From positions 1 to 64,000 of IMG/VR virus record IMGVR_UViG_3300045988_122072: DNA of 64,000 bases. One strand, 5' to 3'. The stretch is from a virus. The notes under the pieces are model-generated. The model was given only the letters and a program-made list of their open reading frames with translations, was not told the DNA's origin and did not search any database. This document shows positions 19,053 to 28,010 of this stretch, in pieces. The stretch's first letter is position 1, and the number at the start of each line of letters is the position of its first letter. The position numbers and the translations under genes are program-made.

Positions 19053-19352
19053 TTATTCTGCCTTTTTGACAGGAAACTCAATCTTCTTTGGTTCCTGCAT
19101 AATGACGCCAAGATCGCGCTTGATGCATTTATTAAAATTCTTAGTATCAGAAATATCACAGGCGGATAGAAGCTCCTTTGCCTCTTCCTTAGTGATTAGC
19201 TCGAAATTGAAATTTGTACAAGTTTCAAAAATATCTTTGCAGTTATCGCTGCAGAATGAATTCATCCACAGTGGGAGGGCACGGTAGTCCCAACAGCTAC
19301 TGCAATATGAATAGGTCTTGCCACAGCACAGACATGTACGAGGATATCTCAT
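19053..19352 (-). CDS. Cys-rich (MYND/HIT-like) Zn-finger ORF. It is either an independent gene or exon 2 of the 255-aa upstream gene
   Basis: 99 aa, CLCCGKTYSYCSSC...FCSDNCKDIF. AAGGAG lies 9 nt upstream of the ATG. It is also in frame with a predicted intron 3' splice site at 19357/19356. Confidence 0.6.
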   Translation of the reverse strand: MRYPRTCLCCGKTYSYCSSCWDYRALPLWMNSFCSDNCKDIFETCTNFNFELITKEEAKELLSACDISDTKNFNKCIKRDLGVIMQEPKKIEFPVKKAE

Positions 19353-19358
19353 GAGACG

Positions 19359-20435
19359 TCACTCCTTTATGTTAGTTTTAGTTGTAAGAGATAATATTTT
19401 AGGATGTGTTTCAAAAATATCGATATTAGATTTATTTAAAATATATTCACGAAGTTGTTCTAGAGTATTATTGTGAGTACCATATAGGTTGTGGAAGGAG
19501 CCATCTTTTGTAGAATCGTGGCAATCCTTACATAATGTTATACCATTATCTACCGAATATCTGAGCTCATCATGTTCTGAAAACGAGTATACATGATGGG
19601 CATTTAGTCTACCACCAACTTTGCCACAACACTGGCATGTATAATTATCACGTTCGTATACTAGAGTACGCCAATTTTTATATTCACTACGATGTCGAAG
19701 AGTATCATTTTCTCCATTTATGCCGCCCTTCCAAAAATGATTGTTAGCGCCTCTACGCTCAATGCCAGCCCGTTCATTTTCGCATTTTCTGCATGTAAAA
19801 CCATAAATTGCTGCATTTGCTATCTTCTGAAGATAGTCTTCATGCACTTTATTTGGGCAAGTGAACCAGACCTTTTCTTCTGAATGCGGAGCGTATTCAT
19901 ATGGTGTTTTATCATTTTTCTCAGACCAACGGTCAAGAATTTCTGGATACTTAGCTCCAAGGCTATCTAATGGATGAACTTTTCTATTGATACAATAAGG
20001 GCATCCAATCCCATTAACAAAAGATCGTGGAGCTTGACCATAAACATGATACTCATGCTTTTGGCATTGAATAATAATTTCGCCACATATACGACCAGCG
20101 GGAACTTCCCATGGAGAAACATCATTACTACTATGCCAACGTGACCACAAATAATCTTCTCCATATTTATCAATGACTACTTGTGCAACACTATTGCATT
20201 TCCTACACTTTCCAGAAGAATGGCTTCTAGTTAAAACGGTAATATAAAATTCTTCGCTTTCATGAATACCGCGAGGACATTTAAACCAATATTTTTTATT
20301 ACTTTGATAACCCACATCTTTAGTAGTACACCCATTTTTATCAACATCAAATCTTTCATTCAAATCTAATCTATTGTTTTCTACACACCACTCATAAAAT
20401 GTTTTAGTAACACTAAACTGATTACCATATTCCAT
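19359..20435 (-). CDS. HNH homing endonuclease (intron A-encoded)
   Basis: C-terminal HNH motif CQCCGKVGGRLNAHHVYSF..NGITLCKDCHD. Repeated Zn-ribbon units (YWFKCPRGIHE, VWFTCPNKVHE). ATG 20435 lies 5 nt after GGAGG. Confidence 0.85.
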   Translation of the reverse strand: MEYGNQFSVTKTFYEWCVENNRLDLNERFDVDKNGCTTKDVGYQSNKKYWFKCPRGIHESEEFYITVLTRSHSSGKCRKCNSVAQVVIDKYGEDYLWSRWHSSNDVSPWEVPAGRICGEIIIQCQKHEYHVYGQAPRSFVNGIGCPYCINRKVHPLDSLGAKYPEILDRWSEKNDKTPYEYAPHSEEKVWFTCPNKVHEDYLQKIANAAIYGFTCRKCENERAGIERRGANNHFWKGGINGENDTLRHRSEYKNWRTLVYERDNYTCQCCGKVGGRLNAHHVYSFSEHDELRYSVDNGITLCKDCHDSTKDGSFHNLYGTHNNTLEQLREYILNKSNIDIFETHPKILSLTTKTNIKE

Positions 20436-20549
20436 AAATATTACCTCCATAATAACATCTCCACTTTTAAACATCGCAAGAAGGTAGGGTGTGGAGGCAC
20501 CCTACCTTGTCAAAAGAGCCAATTACCTCTCTTTCTATCTTGCGTTGAT

Positions 20550-20578
20550 ATTATATCACATTAATTTTGTTTTGTCAA
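20550..20578 (-). promoter_or_regulatory. Consensus sigma-70-type promoter inside intron A
   Basis: Minus strand TTGACA (20573-20578), 17 nt, TATAAT (20550-20555). The -35 is part of the palindrome TTGTCAAGGACTTGACAA (20572-20589). The spacer contains an ACAAAATTAA box (20561-20570). Confidence 0.65.
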
Positions 20579-21000
20579 GTCCTTGACAAATTATTCCTCG
20601 CTAGGAATAACGATGGAGAATACTATTGCGTTTAAGCAAGGCGCTACACTTGCCCGGTCTTATGACCCTTTATCTTTCGATAAAGTACAGACTATATCTT
20701 CACCCACATAAGTGGGGCACACCACTTCCATAACCAATCGCTTGTTATGTACTTCTCTTAACGAGAATAGTCGTTGAGGTTTTCTCTATTCGAGACTTAC
20801 CTGCTGATTTCCCATTATAACAGATACTTAGGATTTAACCATATATCTATCTCATAACTTTTTTCTACTTTCGTGACCATTACGTTTAAGCATGTTTCAT
20901 CTTTCCGCTTTGGTATATGAGCTTTAGGGATTTCCAGCATTTCAATGTGTTATTTATCATATAAATTACTTTATACGGAAACTATTCGTAGAAAGCCACA

Positions 21001-21768
21001 TTATGCAGCCATCACTTCTAATTTCTTTTCCTTGTCGCAGTATGCCTGTTGAGCCTTACCACTGAAAGGATGAGCGCCATCTGTCGCAACAGACCAGTCG
21101 AAGTCAGGACTAAGCTTAAAGTTGGGGAAGATGAGATAACAGTGAATTAAAGTAGTCTGATCACATACGTCGCAGCCAAGAACTTCCATGACGAACTTAC
21201 AGCCGACAGGGAATTCAGTAGCGGAGTTGACAACTTCAACAGCATTCTCAGTCTCATAGTCATACATAACGAATAGCTCGTCACTAGCATTTAGACCGGT
21301 AGGCAGCTTCATATTCTGGCCAGCAATGGAGAACTCTGTCTCAGAGGCAGCAGTACCCTTGGTGTACTTCTTACCAAAAGTGCTATCGCCATTTAGAACA
21401 TAAATTTCCTTAACTTCGCCCTTGGGAGCATGCTTTAGCTCATAAGAACCAGTGCCATATTCGAAGCTCTCCATAGCAGGAGCAGTAATCTTAGCAGAAG
21501 AGCTGGCAACCTTCTTGGAAGTACCAAGCTGAGTAGCCATTAGATTCATATCGAAAATAGCGTTCTCAGCAGAGAACTCGGCACTCTTAGCACGATAGAA
21601 CGTAGCAATAGGAGTACCTAGAGCGTCAACAGCATCAGTGGATTCAGATGCGCAGTTTAGAGAAACATTCTGCATCTGGTTGATAGAGAATAGTATGGAA
21701 TCGTCCTTCTGAGATAGAGCAATACCACGAGTAACTCTATTGATAACAAAGTTATTAATGTCAAACAT
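21001..21768 (-). CDS. Structural-module protein (possible tail/neck component). The 3' end may be remodelled by splicing of intron A
   Basis: 255 aa; GGAGG SD; the stop lies 11 nt downstream of the predicted 5' splice site (21014/21013). Confidence 0.7.
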   Translation of the reverse strand: MFDINNFVINRVTRGIALSQKDDSILFSINQMQNVSLNCASESTDAVDALGTPIATFYRAKSAEFSAENAIFDMNLMATQLGTSKKVASSSAKITAPAMESFEYGTGSYELKHAPKGEVKEIYVLNGDSTFGKKYTKGTAASETEFSIAGQNMKLPTGLNASDELFVMYDYETENAVEVVNSATEFPVGCKFVMEVLGCDVCDQTTLIHCYLIFPNFKLSPDFDWSVATDGAHPFSGKAQQAYCDKEKKLEVMAA

Positions 21769-21813
21769 AATAATTTCCTCCTAAAAATAATAATTTTAAT
21801 ATTAAAGAGATAA

Positions 21814-22548
21814 TTAAATCTCCTTTAACCAATTCAAATCCGCCTTATTTATTTTCTTTGTATCTATCATGCCAGAATAACATCCAGCAAGTAGATGGTC
21901 TGCATTATTGATAATTTGTAGGCGAGCCAAATCATCAAAAAATTCTACAAATCCCTCATTTCTCACATAATCCTTCGTATATCCCATACGAACCTTTACA
22001 GAAGAAATAAGCGGCAACAGATATGATTTAAAAGGCTTTTCTTGATTTAACCTAATTTTCATTCTGTCTTCATCTATAAGGATTTGTTTGGTTGTCTTAT
22101 TTGCCGCACGTTCTATTTTTGGCGTAATATTATGAACCTTTCTTAAATAATTTACAATTCTTAAATAAATTAATTTATCAATCTTTATACCAGATTCTAA
22201 ATCCGCCAAAACAATATCGCCATTTTCCTTATTTCTATATGGTTTTAATTTAGTAAAATCTAAATCACCAAACAGCAATTCAGTATTTTCTTTTGATAAC
22301 GTCGGGGCAAGCATCATAAACAACTCAAAATCTTCAATCTCCATCCAATCTAACCCCATATCCCAAAGTTTGGACTTAAGGTCGCTCGGAATAGCAGTTA
22401 AAGTATGAACAACACTAAAATATTTTGCTTCACCAAAATCTACAATATCTCCAATTTTCGCCTGTTTAATTTTTATTTTATCATTAATAATATAATCGTC
22501 TCCAAAATATAATTGGAGAGGATCTACTTCAAAAATATCAGAACTCAT
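21814..22548 (-). CDS. Hypothetical structural-module protein
   Basis: 244 aa; overlaps the upstream gene by 11 nt; GAGGAA upstream. Confidence 0.7.
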   Translation of the reverse strand: MSSDIFEVDPLQLYFGDDYIINDKIKIKQAKIGDIVDFGEAKYFSVVHTLTAIPSDLKSKLWDMGLDWMEIEDFELFMMLAPTLSKENTELLFGDLDFTKLKPYRNKENGDIVLADLESGIKIDKLIYLRIVNYLRKVHNITPKIERAANKTTKQILIDEDRMKIRLNQEKPFKSYLLPLISSVKVRMGYTKDYVRNEGFVEFFDDLARLQIINNADHLLAGCYSGMIDTKKINKADLNWLKEI

Positions 22549-23050
22549 ATTTGTTCCTCGTTACAGCTTTATTTAGAGAATTAGTTCTGGTAAGCTCAAA
22601 TTTTAAAGTACGAGTGGAGTACGCAGTGTCCGTTACCCCCTCTTTGTTGTATATCAATTTTGCTTGCATACCGAACATATTAGACCATCCAAAAATATCA
22701 CGAATTAAATACCCAAGTAAATCATGTCGCTCAATTCCATATGGAGTTTTAATATCATCCGCATGACAAAACACAACAAATTGTACATATTGAATTTTCA
22801 TGACACTATTATATTGATGGTCTTCTATGTCATCCACACTAAAGCATATAAAATTTCTTGCAACATCCTGCACCTCTGGCACTCGAATATATGCAAAGAT
22901 ATTTGTGTTTAAATAATCATCTGGGCTTGAAGGATCTAGTTCACGATTATTTAACGCCTCAATAATATCTGGATCTGATGTAAGTTTTTGACGAATTAAA
23001 CGTTTCATGCTAGACACATCATCATCAATATTTTGAATATCTCTAATCAT
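22538..23050 (-). CDS. Hypothetical structural-module protein
   Basis: 170 aa; GGAGG SD; TAATG overlap with the upstream stop. Confidence 0.7.
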   Translation of the reverse strand: MIRDIQNIDDDVSSMKRLIRQKLTSDPDIIEALNNRELDPSSPDDYLNTNIFAYIRVPEVQDVARNFICFSVDDIEDHQYNSVMKIQYVQFVVFCHADDIKTPYGIERHDLLGYLIRDIFGWSNMFGMQAKLIYNKEGVTDTAYSTRTLKFELTRTNSLNKAVTRNKYEF

Positions 23051-24345
23051 TAACTAACCACCTCCATAACCGTTTCTGCTGCGTACTTACCGTCTTTGTT
23101 TGCGGCCGACACAACAATTTTTTTACCAACCATGCTATACAATTGTAAACAACGTAATTTAAGAGCATTCCAATTATCTTCTGCTGGTGCAACATTAATT
23201 TTAAATATTTCTTCTCCATTGACACTACACGTAACATCACATGCATCAACATCCGATGGCGTAGAAACATCGTCTCTAAAACTTAAATCAGATAGCATGA
23301 CATTAGAAGGGCAATCGTCAGATGGTTCAATTTCCCAATCATCATTATGATAATGAAGATTAATAGAGCATAATAACTGGTTATCATTCATAAATGACAA
23401 TTTCCATATTGGCTTATCTGCAACATATACCAAATTAAATGCATCCCAAAACTCTGCCGTAAATACCTTAGAACTACCGCCAACACGCAATGTAGCATCT
23501 TTGCCATTATAAGTAATTCTCCCCGTCGGGGATTCTTCCTCTGGCATTTCAAGTCCGGCATCAATATAATGAGGCTCTTTTAATCTACAATATTGACAAA
23601 TTTCGTTTTTAGTAATGTCGTGCTCTTTATTCGTACACCAATTTGCTAAGCCATATTTTCCACAGTCTTCCTGCATTGTCGCTTGGACTTGTTTAAATGT
23701 CAAACGTGTAATACCAACCGGGATTGTATCTAATACCTTAGATAATTCCCACGCTAAAGGCACCTTCCTTCCACTATCATAAATCAATACGCGTTGATTA
23801 TAACTAAGCGTTTGCGTATATGGAGTTGTTGGTAATAGCATGATGGTTTGATCTTCTGGCGTAGTAAAAATATAATCAGTCCAAAGACCAGAGTTATAAG
23901 AACTCTGCGTTCTCTGTACGCACTCACACTTATAAACTTTATCTTCATGTACCCATTTTAATGTCCAGTTACACTTTAATACATAATACATATGAAACTG
24001 CGGTTGATGATCATCAAGAATGACGAGCCATCTTTGTAATTCACCCGCATCATCTGGGATATCAACATATGACCCAACAGGAATCTTAACATGAGGTCGA
24101 AATTGTAGCTTATATACTTCTTCGTCACCGCTTATTGAACGGCGCGTATCAATAATAAACTTAGCGTCTAGTTTTTTTAATTCAATTTCGTTTGGCACAG
24201 AAGTGACAAAAACCTCACGATATGCAGGGTCTCGTTTGAAGGTGGCGTTGATCGTACTATCGGCATTGCGCAAATAAGCATCGCATTGACATTTCCCTAA
24301 TCTTTCCATACGAGTTTTAAATGAATCAAGCATTATCATCACCAT
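23050..24345 (-). CDS. Hypothetical structural-module protein (431 aa)
   Basis: Long ORF translationally coupled to both neighbours; exact start uncertain among three close ATGs. Confidence 0.7.
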   Translation of the reverse strand: MVMIMLDSFKTRMERLGKCQCDAYLRNADSTINATFKRDPAYREVFVTSVPNEIELKKLDAKFIIDTRRSISGDEEVYKLQFRPHVKIPVGSYVDIPDDAGELQRWLVILDDHQPQFHMYYVLKCNWTLKWVHEDKVYKCECVQRTQSSYNSGLWTDYIFTTPEDQTIMLLPTTPYTQTLSYNQRVLIYDSGRKVPLAWELSKVLDTIPVGITRLTFKQVQATMQEDCGKYGLANWCTNKEHDITKNEICQYCRLKEPHYIDAGLEMPEEESPTGRITYNGKDATLRVGGSSKVFTAEFWDAFNLVYVADKPIWKLSFMNDNQLLCSINLHYHNDDWEIEPSDDCPSNVMLSDLSFRDDVSTPSDVDACDVTCSVNGEEIFKINVAPAEDNWNALKLRCLQLYSMVGKKIVVSAANKDGKYAAETVMEVVS

Positions 24346-24628
24346 CTTTCAAGGCATTAACTAAATTAGCCGCATCAAGTATAGCCTTGCGGAACTGAGA
24401 AGGATCCCTTCGTGCTGTCTCTAAACAACTAATAATAGTCAATATTTCTGGCTGATAATTAAACATTTTATTTAATCCACTTATTTGATTAATCAATGAT
24501 TGCATATGGGCATCTAAAAAAGGGTGTTCATTCTCTTTTTGATAAAGACAACTAATAATTGCTCCATATAAATAACGTTTTTGCTCTATAATCTGCATTT
24601 GAGGGATATCTCCATAAATAGTATTCAT
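24326..24628 (-). CDS. Small head/neck-module protein
   Basis: ORF track 24326-24679; ATG 24628 is preceded by GGGAGG. Confidence 0.6.
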   Translation of the reverse strand: MNTIYGDIPQMQIIEQKRYLYGAIISCLYQKENEHPFLDAHMQSLINQISGLNKMFNYQPEILTIISCLETARRDPSQFRKAILDAANLVNALKDGDDNA

Positions 24629-24641
24629 AGTAATTCCTCCC

Positions 24642-25061
24642 TCAAGTCCAATACGAACCATATCCATATGTATAATCACGGCTTAGCCTTTGCGCTTCTA
24701 ACTTCATTTTTTCATCCAACGCTATTAATTCCGCAAGATGCTGAGACTGAGAATAATATTTCTGCTCTTTATCAGCAAAAACTTGCTTGGTCAATAAAAC
24801 AGAATTAACTTGCGGCTCAAGCCACTGCCTCACAACTAAAATTGCAAGAATTTCCTTCTCTACATCTAATAAATCTACGTTAAATTGCTTATTCTCTTCA
24901 TCTCGATTAGAAAGGTCATTTTTGCATTTTCTAAATTGTGAAATAGCGCTCATAAGCCATCCATGGAACATATCTTCCAAATCTTCCTCTGGAAGTAATG
25001 CAAGATCTGGGTCTTCAATTTTAGAAGCAGCTCTTTCATAAATTTCAGAAAAAGGAGTCAT
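24642..25061 (-). CDS. Putative head-tail connector/adaptor protein
   Basis: 139 aa, acidic N-terminus DPDLALLPEEDLEDMFHGWL. Size and position right after the capsid gene cluster are typical of gp6/gp15-like adaptors. Assignment is by position only. Confidence 0.4.
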   Translation of the reverse strand: MTPFSEIYERAASKIEDPDLALLPEEDLEDMFHGWLMSAISQFRKCKNDLSNRDEENKQFNVDLLDVEKEILAILVVRQWLEPQVNSVLLTKQVFADKEQKYYSQSQHLAELIALDEKMKLEAQRLSRDYTYGYGSYWT

Positions 25062-25075
25062 TTAAATAACCCCCT

Positions 25076-25609
25076 TTACTCAATCATTAATTTTAACTCT
25101 GTGCCAAGAATTTCATCCAGTGCGTTAATCTTTGCAATACTATCTAAAGAACCATTACGAATTTTATCCCCAGCAATATTCTTGATAGAATCTTTAAATC
25201 CAACAGGAATCTCACGGAGTCTTTTCTTAAACTGATTAATAGGTAGATTGAATAAATTATCGACATCTAGTGCAGCAACCTTTGCGTAAAGGGCCTTAAG
25301 TTCGGGCCACTGTTCAAGTAACTCTTCGTCCTCAATTACAAAATACGGGGCATTTAGATAAGCAGACCTAGTAGACCTAAGAGCTTGGAGATCTTGAAAT
25401 TCTACCTCAGTAGCATCACCATAATCTGCCCATGTGTATAGTAATTGAGACTTCTTGCCGGGTAATAGCAGTTCTCCGAACGTCACAGACTTGCACAAAA
25501 TAACATCATCTTGCGCAAATTTACGAGGAGCCTTCTTCTTGGGTTCTTCCTTGATAATTTCTTCAGTAGGAGCCTCGGCCTCTACCTTCTTGGTTCTTGT
25601 ATTTGCCAT
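25076..25609 (-). CDS. Hypothetical head-module protein
   Basis: 177 aa; AAGGAG SD; basic Lys-rich N-terminus. Confidence 0.7.
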   Translation of the reverse strand: MANTRTKKVEAEAPTEEIIKEEPKKKAPRKFAQDDVILCKSVTFGELLLPGKKSQLLYTWADYGDATEVEFQDLQALRSTRSAYLNAPYFVIEDEELLEQWPELKALYAKVAALDVDNLFNLPINQFKKRLREIPVGFKDSIKNIAGDKIRNGSLDSIAKINALDEILGTELKLMIE

Positions 25610-25656
25610 ATTAAATTTCTCCTTTTATCCTAATAATTAATTTTATATTGTTTAAA

Positions 25657-25906
25657 TTACTTAACAATCTTCCACATACCAAACTTCTGGTTAGTAATAA
25701 CACTAAGGCCCATCTTAGTCTGAACCTCGTAATCATACGTAAGATCCATATGAGTACCAGCGTCCTGAACCTGATACATCTGAGTGTCGCCTTCATAAAC
25801 TAGCTTGATGAAAGGCTCGACACCAACGGGCATGATAAACAGAATATCATTAGCAATTAGATACTGAGTGGTATCATTAAGCTTAAAGCCCTGCTTTAAC
25901 TCAACA
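25657..25906 (-). CDS. Major capsid protein, exon 2 (predicted)
   Basis: An 83-codon open frame with no start codon or SD ends at TAA 25657-25659. It encodes VELKQGFKLNDTTQYLIANDILFIMPVGVEPFIKLVYEGDTQMYQVQDAGTHMDLTYDYEVQTKMGLSVITNQKFGMWKIVK. Joined to exon 1 it gives a 1089-nt, in-frame, 362-aa product. Confidence 0.7.
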
Positions 25907-25915
25907 CCTTTATGT

Positions 25916-26734
25916 TTAACAATTTTTATTTTCCAACATTACCCATGATAATGGCTCTCCGGTAACTGGGTGCTTACCGGCATGTTTTTGTTCTCCAACT
26001 AAACAGGCTTTAATACAACCTTTACAAATATTATATTTATTTTCTGCTTCTCTCATTGTTATAAAACATTCATCAAGTTGTGGGCAATATACACTTATGC
26101 CATTCTTTTTTCTTGCCGCTCCGATTTTCTTACGGGTTTCTTCTGAACGGAATGTACTCCCGCCCCTTCCAGATTTTTTAGCAGCTTTACTACGATTAGT
26201 ATGACACACTTCATCCCAATTAATGGATTTTATTTCTTGAAGCTTAGATTCGGATGTATTAATATATTCGTCGTAATACATAAAATCACGATGTATCTTT
26301 AACATTTCCCACATTGTGGTATTGCTAATATTATTGTCAATATAACAATCTTTGACTGTATCATATATTTTATCATCACATAATCTTATAACACGTCTTG
26401 CAGATGGATTTTTATAACCAGAAAATTTTTCTGAATATACCTTCCTTGCTTCTTCGTATTCTTCTGGAGTTAATTCATATCTTTTTTGATTCTTATCTTT
26501 CACAAACGCCATTAACGTATATGCATGTGCCAGCTTATCATCATCAGGATTTTCTTCGGCAAGTAATTTATGTGCAATAAAATGTTCCCTAGCAAACAAA
26601 TCAATTAAATTTTCTTCTTTGTCAGATCCATTTTTACACTTAGGAATAATATGATGTCTTTCGTGATATTCATCATCATACATAAAACGTCCACGAGTTT
26701 GTAAAATGTTATCAATAAATTCTTTATAACTCAT
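25916..26734 (-). CDS. HNH homing endonuclease with NUMOD-like DNA-binding modules (intron B-encoded)
   Basis: HERHHIIPKCKNGSDKEENLIDLFAREHFIAHKLL (HNH). SEETRKKIGAARKKNG (NUMOD3-like). ATG 26734 follows AGAGG. The ORF-track start 26815 lies inside the intron core. Confidence 0.85.
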   Translation of the reverse strand: MSYKEFIDNILQTRGRFMYDDEYHERHHIIPKCKNGSDKEENLIDLFAREHFIAHKLLAEENPDDDKLAHAYTLMAFVKDKNQKRYELTPEEYEEARKVYSEKFSGYKNPSARRVIRLCDDKIYDTVKDCYIDNNISNTTMWEMLKIHRDFMYYDEYINTSESKLQEIKSINWDEVCHTNRSKAAKKSGRGGSTFRSEETRKKIGAARKKNGISVYCPQLDECFITMREAENKYNICKGCIKACLVGEQKHAGKHPVTGEPLSWVMLENKNC

Positions 26735-26946
26735 ATTTACCTCTTTTAAAAAATATTGTTGGAAAATAAAAATACAGAACGCTACTTCTGTGTTGTTGAA
26801 AAATTCAACCTCCATCTTTCAATAGAGAGCAGACTATATCTTCATTCTTTCGAATGCGCACCACTTCGAACGCCAACCACTTGCGTCCTACTCCCATTAC
26901 GGGATAGTCGTTGAACCTTCATCTTAACATTAATTTTGTATTATAC

Positions 26947-26974
26947 ATTATACCTTAAAATTTTAATTTGTCAA
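26947..26974 (-). promoter_or_regulatory. Consensus sigma-70-type promoter inside intron B
   Basis: Minus strand TTGACA (26969-26974), 16 nt, TATAAT (26947-26952). A second TATAAT lies at 26940-26945, followed by an ACAAAATTA box (26931-26939). Confidence 0.6.
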
Positions 26975-27171
26975 GATACTTGGCTGCTGATTGTCCATTA
27001 TTACAACATTTAGGATTTAACCATGTGTCATCTGTATTTGTTTTTTCTACTTTCGTAGCATTCACGCTCGACTTTACAGTCCACGTTGTAGCCAATACAG
27101 TTTTAGGATTTTCCAGCAATTCAATGCGTTATTTTTCGAACAGTTTTCACTGTACGCGACCTATTTATTTA

Positions 27172-28010
27172 AGTCTAATTCCTTCCCAATAACCAAACTT
27201 ACCAGTGGTGTGCTTCTCATCCTTCATGCTACCAGAAGCCCATTCAACCTTAGTAAGATCAAACACACTAGCAAGAGCAGCGCGAGTACCCATAATAACG
27301 ACTTCGGAATCAGATGCCATACCAACATCCATACATAGAGTACGTAAGGTTTCCTTGGTTGCATCACTTAGAGCAGAAGACTTATACCACTGAGCGCCTA
27401 GAGTAGTACCAACACCCATTAGAGCCTCATATAGAGCCTGATTGACATAACGATCAAAAGCTTCAGTAATCTTACCAACTAGAGTTGCAAAATCTTCAAC
27501 GCCAGTAAGTAGTCTTTCAAATTCTGCGTAAACCTTAAGACCATACCAGCTAGTCTCAACACTAAAGGTCTTGCCAGCTCCTAGTCTCTGTCTAATAATG
27601 TCGTGATGGTTGCCAGAGACTTTCATTACAGAAAGAACACTCTGATCTGGGCAATAGAACTCGTTCTTATCACCAAGTGCTAGATTACGAATTTCAACAA
27701 ACTCCTTGAAGAAAGGATTCTCCTGCCAGCCACTAACTAGAGCATCATCAATAACGACCTCAATTAGATCAAAAAGAACTGCCTGATTTCTACGAATACC
27801 TCTACGAATTTCTGCCTTGGTGGACTTTTCGTCGCAACCAATAACATTGCGGAAAATCTCAACAATCTTCTGATTTGCTTCCTTTACGGAAATGCCATCT
27901 AGAGCATTGTGAGCATAGTCAAGCATTAGCTTATTAAAAGCATTATAATCATTCTCATTATTATCAAATACATTCTTAACATTCATATCAAACTGCATAA
28001 ACTTAGCCAT
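27172..28010 (-). CDS. Major capsid protein, exon 1 (predicted)
   Basis: ATG 28010 lies 8 nt after GGAGG. The ORF runs to ..GKFGYWEGIRL. An in-frame TAA lies 2 codons past the predicted 5' splice site. Its position after portal and scaffold supports a capsid call. Confidence 0.7.

What the first reader, a model, noticed from the sequence alone, without database searches (positions are those of the whole stretch)
19357..27171. The two introns are paralogues with unrelated endonuclease ORFs, inserted after a shared AATTAGA exon motif
Both ribozyme cores align over roughly 300 nt: P AUUGAA(A/U)UGCUGGAAA, GGUUAAAUCCUAA, Q AAUCAGCAG, R CAACGACUAU, GAAGUGGUG and S GAAGAUAUAGUCUG. They show compensatory changes in P2 (CGUAUAAA/UUUAUAUG versus ACAGU/ACUGU, both with GNRA loops) and in P8 (UUCUC/GAGAA versus UCCC/GGGA). 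Yet the HNH ORFs, at 358 and 272 aa, are not alike. The predicted 5' exon ends are AAATTAGAAGT| and GAATTAGACT|. This fits one intron lineage that moved to a second structural gene by reverse splicing into a similar short target. The endonuclease cassette would then have been replaced or acquired independently.
Basis: partly seen in the sequence, partly recalled or inferred. Interest (0 to 1): 0.65.

Follow-up and report, generated by a model that had tools for sequence, protein, structure and literature searches.

The report
Two phage introns, only distantly related

Summary
Both group I introns are real (Rfam 68.8 and 60.1 bits, minus strand).

Three parts of the finding fail:
- Intron-less alleles in related phage contigs place intron B at 21020-20623. 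It is 398 nt with no ORF, 10 codons before the host gene's stop. The 358-aa HNH gene lies outside the intron, downstream of the stop, behind its own perfect TTGACA-17-TATAAT promoter.
- The true flanks are GAATTAGACT|TGTTGAG (A) and GAAAAGAAAT|TATTCTCC (B). In B, "AATTAGA" straddles the exon-intron boundary, so there is no shared exon motif.
- A and B are 61-65% identical. That is no closer than either is to introns of Enterocloster, Clostridioides or Alicyclobacillus phages (60-69%). A's closest relatives at other sites sit at capsid-gene codons 281 and 166 (81-87%).

The family shows IA2-type features and is related to IStron ribozymes. About 120 copies occupy at least 15 sites in the structural genes of 72 related contigs.

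Intron A (27171-25907) is a classic composite mobile intron. Its HNH gene sits in the 3' tail and a promoter sits in the P6 loop. Intron B with its neighbouring endonuclease fits trans or collaborative homing, which is inferred, not shown. This is a known kind of system with a rich new set of examples.

The parts
27172..28010 (-). Major capsid protein gene, exon 1 (ends ...GGAATTAGACT)
   Evidence: phrog_4088 match E=2.4e-52. About 30% identity to annotated major capsid proteins of Bacillus Tsamsa-like phages. Junction fixed by intron-less alleles L052, L053 and L065.
25907..27171 (-). Intron A: 1265-nt composite group I intron, from 5'-UAAAUAAAUAGGUC... to ...GUUAAACAUAAAGG-3' (omega-G at 25907)
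   Evidence: Rfam RF00028 at 68.8 bits. The spliced product reads ...GYWEGIRL/VELKQGFKLN, identical to intron-less homologues. P1 is GACU:GGUC and P10 is UGUU:AAUA, read directly from the sequence.
26774..27171 (-). Ribozyme part of intron A (P1 to P9.2)
   Evidence: Covariation across 22 family members supports P2, P3, P4, P5 and its extension, P6, P7.2, P9 and P9.2.
26947..26974 (-). Perfect sigma-70-type promoter (TTGACA-16-TATAAT) inside the P6 loop of intron A
   Evidence: 12 of 12 match. Across the family a P6 promoter goes with an in-intron endonuclease gene: 43 both, 51 neither, 5 discordant.
25916..26734 (-). HNH-A, intron-encoded HNH homing endonuclease (272 aa). It lies between P9.2 and the conserved 3' tail, and its stop codon lies inside the tail.
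   Evidence: phrog_655 'homing endonuclease' E=6.7e-26. Pfam HNH 20.4 bits, just under the 21.4 cut-off. The same protein family is found in introns at MCP sites 145, 166, 281, 287 and 341.
25657..25906 (-). Major capsid protein gene, exon 2 (starts TGTTGAG...)
   Evidence: phrog_4088 positions 277-331.
21021..21768 (-). Virion structural protein gene ('hostB'), exon 1 (ends ...GAAAAGAAAT)
   Evidence: phrog_2729 E=5.8e-18. Intron-less alleles L003, L004, L005, L006, L009 and L011.
20623..21020 (-). Intron B: 398-nt ORF-less group I intron, from 5'-UAGAAGUGAUGG... to ...AAACGCAAUAG-3' (omega-G at 20623)
   Evidence: Rfam 60.1 bits. Splicing gives ...CDKEKKL/FSIVIPSEE*, matching all intron-less alleles. 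P1 is GAAAU:GUUUC and P10 is UAUUC:GAAUA. The exon and the guide sequence co-vary in relatives (GAGAU:GUCUC in contig 150864). Seventeen complete relatives at the same site, plus one copy cut off by a contig end, are also ORF-less.
20591..20622 (-). hostB exon 2: 32 nt, encoding the last 10 residues and the TAA stop
20550..20578 (-). Perfect sigma-70-type promoter (TTGACA-17-TATAAT with TG) 12 nt downstream of the hostB stop, followed by a conserved structured leader
   Evidence: 12 of 12 match. Promoter and leader are conserved in L004, L007 and L016.
19359..20435 (-). HNH-B: free-standing endonuclease gene (358 aa from the ATG with a ribosome-binding site; 371 aa from ATG 20474), with DUF4379 zinc-finger repeats and a C-terminal HNH domain
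   Evidence: Pfam DUF4379 E=2.8e-12 and HNH 28.4 bits. Homologues sit in the same intergenic slot in contigs whose hostB gene has no intron (093723, 123155).
19053..19352 (-). Separate downstream gene (99 aa, Cys-rich) with its own AAGGAG ribosome-binding site. It is not a 3' exon.
   Evidence: Present directly after hostB in intron-less, endonuclease-less contigs.

Best explanation
The region holds two independent insertions of one widespread group I intron family. The family shows IA2-type features (P7.1/P7.2 and an extended P9 domain) and is related to IStron ribozymes.

Intron A (1265 nt) sits in the major capsid gene at codon 287 and is a composite mobile intron:
- A complete ribozyme is followed by a 272-aa HNH endonuclease gene, inserted between P9.2 and a conserved 3' tail (GUUAAACAUAA-N-G).
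- The gene is probably transcribed from a promoter embedded in the P6 loop.
- The RNA splices itself out so that capsid protein is made.
- In mixed infections the endonuclease is inferred to cut or nick intron-less capsid alleles. Repair then copies the intron together with a few flanking exon bases.

Intron B (398 nt) sits 10 codons before the stop of a virion structural gene and has no ORF. The HNH gene after it is a free-standing homing endonuclease in the intergenic slot, about 45 nt from the intron, with its own promoter. The intron most likely spreads by being co-converted whenever that endonuclease triggers repair (trans or collaborative homing).

A and B are distant cousins within a swarm of about 120 related introns at 15 or more sites in this phage clade. 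Neither is a direct copy of the other.
For: Shown by tool results:
- Rfam hits for both introns.
- Exact junctions from intron-less alleles.
- All site-250 introns are ORF-less and are followed at once by the 3' exon.
- At the hostB locus all four states exist: intron+/endonuclease+ 14 contigs, +/- 4, -/+ 18, -/- 32. The association is positive (Fisher p=0.005, not corrected for phylogeny).
- All six intron-plus MCP-287 alleles share the flanks GGAATTAGACT|TGTTGAG although their capsid genes are only 78-81% identical to the window's. The 99-100% identical capsid alleles of contigs 107099, 112501 and 106160 lack the intron and differ at 8 synonymous positions right at the site.
- A P6 promoter goes with an in-intron endonuclease gene (43/51/5, p=6e-22).
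- The nhmmer survey found 122 family hits, all on the gene strand. Sites were mapped, and Rfam confirmed 5 introns in L038 and 3 in L010.
- Identity rankings and the NJ tree.
- 54 of 67 predicted pairs show compensatory changes.

From the literature:
- Trans and collaborative homing: PMC2790892, PMC3984707.
- IA2 features of IStron ribozymes: PMC4227781.
Against: - There is no experimental splicing or cleavage data. The endonuclease target sites are unknown.
- Four contigs have intron B without a neighbouring endonuclease gene, and 18 have an endonuclease gene without the intron. The two are therefore separable, and the association could partly reflect shared ancestry.
- Pfam HNH for HNH-A is just below the gathering score.
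- RNAalifold did not recover P7, P7.1, P8 or P9.1. These were read by eye.
- The NJ tree has no support values.
Confidence: 0.8

Rival explanations
1. One intron copied itself from one structural gene to the other within this phage by reverse splicing into a shared AATTAGA target, and its endonuclease cassette was then swapped.
For: The cores are clearly homologous. The family has evidently changed sites many times. Endonuclease genes differ between closely related cores.
Against: - B's splice sites lie elsewhere, so AATTAGA is not an exon motif in B.
- The guide sequences differ.
- A and B are 61-65% identical, no closer than either is to introns of unrelated cultured phages.
- B has no internal ORF.
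Confidence: 0.04
2. Intron B and HNH-B are unrelated neighbours. The endonuclease is an ordinary intergenic free-standing element that targets the downstream gene or the intergenic region. The intron is vertically inherited or spreads by ordinary recombination, with no functional partnership.
For: All four presence/absence combinations occur. The intergenic slot holds several different nucleases irrespective of the intron. Three contigs have the intron and only 121 nt to the next gene.
Against: - The intron lies about 45 nt from the endonuclease cassette, far inside the co-conversion distances known from T4 (up to 2 kb, PMC2790892). Physical hitch-hiking is therefore almost unavoidable if the endonuclease is active.
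- Intron presence is enriched next to endonuclease genes (14 of 18 versus 18 of 50).
- Near-identical intron B copies (98-99.7%) occur in contigs whose hostB exons are 89-95% identical.
Confidence: 0.3
3. One or both introns are decaying relics that no longer splice efficiently, and the endonuclease ORFs are inactive.
For: For B, a failure to splice would only replace the last 10 residues by 5 (…KKLEVMAA*), so selection could be weaker. Pfam HNH for HNH-A is just under threshold.
Against: - Both cores score above the Rfam gathering threshold with all core helices intact.
- Helices are kept by compensatory changes across the family.
- The guide sequence co-varies with the exon.
- Intron A interrupts the capsid gene 82 codons before its end, so splicing is presumably needed to make full-length capsid protein.
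- Both ORFs are full length with ribosome-binding sites and perfect promoters.
Confidence: 0.06

Closest known systems
HNH-encoding group I introns of Firmicute phages (SPO1/SP82 I-HmuI, Bastille I-BasI, the multiple introns of Staphylococcus phage Twort)
   Same: [quoted passage not shown] Several introns can sit in one gene, as in Twort orf142 (from my own knowledge; Twort-type Staphylococcus phage introns gave direct blastn hits). Intron A fits this type.
   Different: Here the hosts are capsid and virion genes of an uncultured phage clade with contigs of roughly 130-170 kb. The endonuclease sits in the 3' tail after P9.2. A promoter sits in the P6 loop. Site diversity is far higher: at least 15 sites, and up to 4 introns in one 780-bp gene.
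Collaborative homing (an ORF-less intron plus a free-standing endonuclease that cuts the intron insertion site, such as F-CphI at psbA of a cyanophage) and trans homing (T4 mobE with the nrdB intron)
   Same: Intron B is ORF-less and lies right next to a free-standing HNH gene with its own promoter. Intron and endonuclease are separable in the population. This is the arrangement described in PMC3984707, PMC2790892 and PMC6083498.
   Different: The cleavage site of HNH-B is unknown, so the two variants cannot be told apart. The same intron family also contains composite intron-plus-endonuclease forms at other sites.
IStrons (CdISt1, BcISt1, CbISt3/4): an IA2 ribozyme with an IS element in its 3' end
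   Same: The ribozyme family is the same. The IStron ribozyme of Clostridium phage c-st matches intron A at 80.8% over 147 nt. P7.1/P7.2 and P9.1/P9.2 are shared (P9.0 was not checked), and the cargo sits at the 3' end (PMC4227781).
   Different: The window's introns carry an HNH homing endonuclease (A) or nothing (B), not a transposase. They occupy fixed, homologous gene sites rather than dispersed IS-type targets.

Membership tests
Group I intron (Rfam RF00028) | Covariance-model score at or above the curated gathering score | tested here: met
   68.8 and 60.1 bits against a cut-off of 50.
Group I intron (Rfam RF00028) | Core helices maintained by covariation | tested here: met
   RNAalifold on 22 family members: 54 of 67 pairs show compensatory changes in P2, P3, P4, P5, P6, P7.2, P9 and P9.2. 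P7 and P8 were not recovered by the program and were read by eye.
Group I intron (Rfam RF00028) | 5' exon ends in U paired to G of an internal guide (P1); intron ends in G; P10 pairs with the 3' exon | tested here: met
   A: GACU:GGUC and UGUU:AAUA. B: GAAAU:GUUUC and UAUUC:GAAUA. Junctions are fixed by intron-less alleles, and exon and guide co-vary in relatives.
Group I intron (Rfam RF00028) | Self-splicing activity | not testable with these tools
   Needs in vitro transcription and splicing, or RNA-seq.
Subclass IA2 (as defined for IStron ribozymes in PMC4227781) | P7.1 and P7.2 hairpins, and an extended P9 domain with P9.0, P9.1 and P9.2 | tested here: inconclusive
   P7.2 and P9.2 are supported by covariation. 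P7.1 and P9.1 are visible as compensated hairpins in the alignment but were not scored. P9.0 was not assessed. There is direct sequence similarity to the c-st IStron ribozyme.
Composite mobile group I intron (intron-encoded homing endonuclease): intron A | Endonuclease ORF lies wholly inside the intron, and intron-less alleles exist in relatives | tested here: met
   The ORF 26734-25916 lies within 27171-25907. Sixty-six of 72 sequences (71 related contigs plus the window) lack the intron at this site.
Composite mobile group I intron (intron-encoded homing endonuclease): intron A | The endonuclease cleaves the intron-less allele near the insertion site | not testable with these tools
   There is only the indirect signature of shared flanking exon bases in all intron-plus alleles.
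   The intron ends at 20623 and the host gene's stop is at 20593-20591. The HNH ORF starts at 20435 or 20474.
Collaborative or trans homing pair (intron B plus HNH-B) | ORF-less intron with a free-standing endonuclease gene within co-conversion distance | tested here: met
   The gap between the intron's end and the endonuclease promoter is about 45 nt.
Collaborative or trans homing pair (intron B plus HNH-B) | The endonuclease cuts at (collaborative) or near (trans) the intron insertion site and mobilises the intron | not testable with these tools
   The only evidence is a population association of 14/18 versus 18/50.
IStron | IS transposase (IS200/IS605 or IS607) embedded in the 3' end of the ribozyme | tested here: not met
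   The cargo of A is an HNH endonuclease and B has none. Relatives in c-st, Bacillus LY2 and a Clostridioides phage do carry transposase or OrfB genes.

The most novel reading that the evidence does not exclude
This phage clade preserves successive stages in the making of mobile introns, all within one ribozyme family:
- ORF-less introns standing alone.
- ORF-less introns beside free-standing endonuclease genes (window intron B).
- Free-standing endonuclease genes alone.
- Fully composite introns in which an endonuclease gene has entered the 3' tail and a promoter has entered P6 (window intron A).

The same ribozyme chassis has also taken up LAGLIDADG and GIY-YIG endonucleases and IS transposases at the same docking point. 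If the hostB-associated endonucleases do cut at codon 250, this would be a natural, population-level record of the collaborative-homing route to composite introns.
Probability: 0.3. Interest if true: 0.6.

Novelty: new member of a known kind. Interest (0 to 1): 0.4.

Why it matters
For annotation, the capsid gene and a virion gene of this phage are split. An automatic caller would report truncated proteins, and would either fuse or misplace the HNH gene.

For biology, the corrected anatomy turns a speculative reverse-splicing story into two textbook-type mobility arrangements sitting 5 kb apart.

The related contigs form an unusually dense natural data set. They hold about 120 related introns at 15 or more sites, show all four intron/endonuclease presence-absence states at one locus, and carry ORF-less and ORF-containing versions of the same intron at the same site. 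This data set could test three questions:
- How ORF-less introns persist.
- How endonuclease genes enter introns.
- How guide sequences are retuned when an intron changes site.

Tried and rejected
- Megablast of the 9.2-kb region against cultured phages found nothing, and tblastn of hostB found nothing. The phage is uncultured, so IMG/VR loci were used instead.
- My first hand reading placed B's 3' splice site one base off. Translation exposed the error and fixed it.
- An exhaustive splice-junction search timed out. It was replaced by mapping anchored on tblastn matches.
I rejected it because it has its own AAGGAG ribosome-binding site and is a separate gene directly after hostB in intron-less contigs.
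- I considered a 3' splice site for B right after P9 (20668). I rejected it because the resulting C-terminus matches no homologue.
- A PDB sequence search gave nothing for HNH-A and only a weak HNH hit (5h0m, E=0.014) for HNH-B.
- A permissive Rfam scan of the HNH-B leader and gene found no known RNA family.
- I looked for a pairing partner for the invariant AGCG in the P9.2 loop and found none convincing.


Full report
**What is there**

An Rfam scan of the whole window finds exactly two group I introns, both on the minus strand: 27181-26810 (68.8 bits) and 21012-20668 (60.1 bits), against a gathering score of 50.

- The upstream host gene is the major capsid protein (MCP). Its 5' part matches phrog_4088 positions 5-253 and a downstream ORF matches positions 277-331. 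It is about 30% identical to annotated capsid proteins of Bacillus Tsamsa-like siphoviruses.
- The second host gene matches phrog_2729, 'virion structural protein'. I call it hostB.
- The phage has no close relative among cultured phages.
- IMG/VR holds 71 related contigs, most of roughly 130-170 kb (some shorter or partial), that carry the same structural module.

**Exact boundaries from intron-less alleles**

Intron A:
- Contigs 112501 and 106160 have capsid genes 97-99% identical in nucleotides to the window's, with no intron. The 1281 nt between the two aligned blocks of the window correspond to 16 nt in them.
- The only junction that has U before the 5' splice site, G as the last intron base, and the reading ...GYWEGIRL/VELKQGFKLN is AGACT|(27171...25907)|TGTTGAG.

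Intron B:
- Six intron-less alleles end ...KAQQAYCDKEK(K/R)LF(S/N)IVIPSE(E/D)*, and a seventh (L007) ends ...KKLFSIIIPEEKD*.
- The window contains this tail intact (TATTCTCCATCGTTATTCCTAGCGAGGAATAA) starting at 20622, right after ...AAACGCAAUAG.
- Intron B is therefore 21020-20623, 398 nt, with no ORF. It lies 10 codons before the stop codon at 20593-20591.
- The pairings support this. P1 is GAAAU:GUUUC and P10 is UAUUC:GAAUA. In relatives the exon and the guide co-vary: GAGAU:GUCUC in contig 150864 and GAGAU:GUUUC in 110566.
- All 17 complete related introns at this site (a further copy is cut off by a contig end) are 385-398 nt, ORF-less, and followed at once by the 10-11 codon exon.

**Consequences for the finding**

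- UAGAAGU is the start of the intron, one arm of an extension hairpin in P1. 'AATTAGA' in B is therefore AAT (exon) plus TAGA (intron).
- The real flanks are GAATTAGACT|TGTTGAG and GAAAAGAAAT|TATTCTCC. They share nothing beyond U at -1 and U at +1.
It directly follows hostB as a separate gene in intron-less contigs.

**The two endonucleases**

The two proteins are unrelated (BLASTP E=0.7).

HNH-A (272 aa):
- It has an N-terminal HNH motif and matches phrog_655, 'homing endonuclease' (E=6.7e-26).
- It lies inside intron A, between P9.2 and a 3' tail (GUUAAACAUAA-N-G) that is conserved across the family. ORF-less members, including B (UUAAACGCAAUAG), have the same tail.

HNH-B (358 aa):
- It has DUF4379 treble-clef zinc-finger repeats and a C-terminal HNH domain.
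- It lies outside intron B, after the host gene's stop codon.
- It is preceded by a perfect TTGACA-17-TATAAT promoter and a conserved structured leader.
- Homologues at 59-60% amino-acid identity occupy the same intergenic slot in contigs 093723 and 123155, whose hostB gene has no intron.

The only other 12-of-12 promoter match in the 9.2 kb examined lies in the P6 loop of intron A, about 210 nt upstream of HNH-A.

**How related are A and B?**

They are clearly homologous.
- blastn within the window gives E=2.6e-13.
- They share peripheral elements as well as the P/Q/R/S core.
- P2, P7.1, P8, P9, P9.1 and P9.2 differ by compensatory changes.

They are not close.
- They are 61% identical over about 387 aligned columns and 65% over 317 well-aligned core columns.
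- On those 317 columns, A is 85-87% identical to introns at MCP codons 281 and 166 (81-82% on the wider alignment). It is 67% identical to an Enterocloster phage intron.
- B is 84-86% identical on the core columns to representative, more divergent introns at its own site. Across all site-250 introns the range on the wider alignment is 80-99.7%.
- B is 69% identical to a Clostridioides phage intron, 68% to an Alicyclobacillus phage intron and 68% to the Enterocloster one.
- A and B rank 14th and 18th of 21 for each other.
- Direct blastn against cultured phages agrees. B matches Alicyclobacillus phage KKP_3916 at 168 bits and A matches the Enterocloster phages at 171 bits, against 67 bits for A versus B.
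- A rough NJ tree places A with the MCP-281 and MCP-166 introns and B with the site-250 and MCP-145 introns. Introns of cultured phages are interspersed among them.

**The family**

- A profile search finds 122 hits in the 71 related contigs plus the window, all on the gene strand.
- The hits map to at least 15 sites:
  - MCP codons 145, 166, 281, 287 and 341.
  - hostB codons about 39, 51, 74, 207, 226-232, 242 and 250.
  - Sites in homologues of the genes at 24345, 23050, 22548 and 25061.
- Rfam confirms five introns in L038, four of them in the 780-bp hostB gene, and three consecutive ones in L010.
- RNAalifold on 22 members gives 67 pairs, 54 of which show compensatory changes.
- P7.1/P7.2 and P9.1/P9.2, together with 80.8% identity to the c-st IStron ribozyme, fit the IA2 class as described for IStrons (PMC4227781).
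- The cargo is modular:
  - HNH-A-type genes in the MCP introns.
  - LAGLIDADG genes in the introns of the 24345 and 22548 homologues.
  - An annotated I-TevI-like gene after the Enterocloster intron.
  - OrfB/TnpB or transposase genes after the c-st, Clostridioides and Bacillus LY2 ribozymes.
- Cores 81-87% identical to A (sites 166 and 281) carry endonucleases only 35-38% identical to HNH-A.
- A P6-loop promoter accompanies an in-intron endonuclease gene in 43 introns. It is absent from 51 ORF-less ones, and 5 are discordant (p=6e-22).

**Signs of mobility**

Site A:
- Only 6 of 72 sequences have the intron at MCP codon 287.
- All six share the flanks GGAATTAGACT|TGTTGAG, although their capsid genes are only 78-81% identical to the window's.
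- The 99-100% identical alleles of 107099, 112501 and 106160 lack the intron and read ATCCG(C/T)CTTGTGGAACTC. That is eight synonymous differences packed into 22 nt.
- This pattern is what homing with short co-conversion tracts produces, combined with the P1/P10 pairing requirement. That reading is an inference.

Site B:
- Copies of intron B that are 98-99.7% identical sit in contigs whose hostB exons are 89-95% identical.
- The locus shows intron+/endonuclease+ in 14 contigs, +/- in 4, -/+ in 18 and -/- in 32 (Fisher p=0.005, not corrected for relatedness).
- The intron is about 45 nt from the endonuclease cassette. Any repair event started by that endonuclease should therefore carry the intron along, as in T4 mobE trans homing, or as in collaborative homing if the cut is at the insertion site (PMC2790892, PMC3984707).
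- Which of the two applies, or whether the two elements are merely neighbours, cannot be decided from sequence.

**Verdict**

The anatomy of the second intron and the shared-motif claim are wrong, and with them the specific reverse-splicing scenario falls.

What is really there is one composite mobile intron, plus one ORF-less intron beside a free-standing endonuclease gene. Both come from a very prolific intron family with IA2-type features that is related to IStron ribozymes. These are known kinds of elements, so novelty is modest. The value lies in the unusually rich comparative series found in the related contigs.

Noticed in passing
L038:8800-12200; L010:10700-11860: Extreme intron density in relatives. 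Rfam confirms five group I introns in 3.4 kb of L038, four of them inside the ~780-bp hostB gene. L010 has three back-to-back introns in the last ~35 codons of hostB, separated by micro-exons.
   Followed up: partly
window 26947-26974 and 20550-20578; L070, L019 and L065 P6 loops (alignment A1, columns 270-325): The promoters in P6 loops and upstream of free-standing endonuclease genes share an extended consensus (TTGACAAWACAAAATTAWTGTRATATAAT-like). This could be the phage's own promoter type taken over by the endonuclease genes. I did not count the motif elsewhere in the window.
   Followed up: no
window 20480-20550 (minus strand); L004:10790-10900; L007:10790-10900: A conserved leader lies between the promoter and HNH-B (…CAAGATAGAAAGAGAGGTAATTGGCTCTTTTGACAAGGTAGGGTGCCTCCACACCCTACCTTCTTGCG…). 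It contains a strong GGTAGGGTG/CACCCTACC hairpin and has no Rfam match. It may regulate the endonuclease.
   Followed up: partly
alignment A1, columns 495-508 (window 26791-26774 and 20648-20630): The P9.2 loop carries a motif (G/A)UA(G/A)CG whose A, C and G at positions 3, 5 and 6 are invariant in all 22 family members, including those from cultured phages, while the stem co-varies. This suggests a tertiary contact, but I found no convincing partner.
   Followed up: partly
L102 (Clostridium phage c-st), L103 (Bacillus phage LY2), L101 (Clostridioides phage ES-S-0173-01): The nearest ribozymes in cultured phages are followed by OrfB/TnpB or transposase genes, so they are IStrons. The Enterocloster phage intron (L100) is followed by an annotated I-TevI-like gene. 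In these records the ribozymes themselves are mostly not annotated.
   Followed up: partly
hostB-to-next-gene intergenic slot in many loci (for example L012:11630-12840, L025, L023): This slot is a hot spot for free-standing nucleases. They share DUF4379 zinc-finger repeats but have different C-terminal catalytic domains: HNH in the window, and a non-HNH domain with the motif …PYDN-x-I-x6-IEV-x-G-x-QH… in others that Pfam does not recognise.
   Followed up: partly
L064:10841-12003 compared with window 27172: Introns at MCP codons 281 and 287 lie only 6 codons apart in different genomes, have 82-85% identical cores, and carry endonucleases 37% identical. This may be a short-range site shift or competition for one conserved stretch of the capsid gene.
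   Followed up: partly
L045:5251-5617 compared with L002:4250-5490 (MCP codon 166): The same site holds a 366-nt ORF-less mini-intron in one contig and 1240-1256-nt endonuclease-bearing versions in others. This is direct evidence of gain or loss of the endonuclease gene together with the P6 promoter.
   Followed up: partly
window 19053-19352 (minus strand): A small Cys-rich protein (CxxC…CxxC…CxxxC, 99 aa) is conserved directly after hostB throughout the clade. It has no Pfam or PHROG match.
   Followed up: no
L065, L078 and L080 at MCP codon 287: Three intron-less capsid alleles (contigs 126550, 131808, 107451) carry the intron-type 5' flank ATTAGACTT but the intron-less-type 3' flank GTGGAACTC. 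They may be footprints of intron loss or of partial co-conversion.
   Followed up: no
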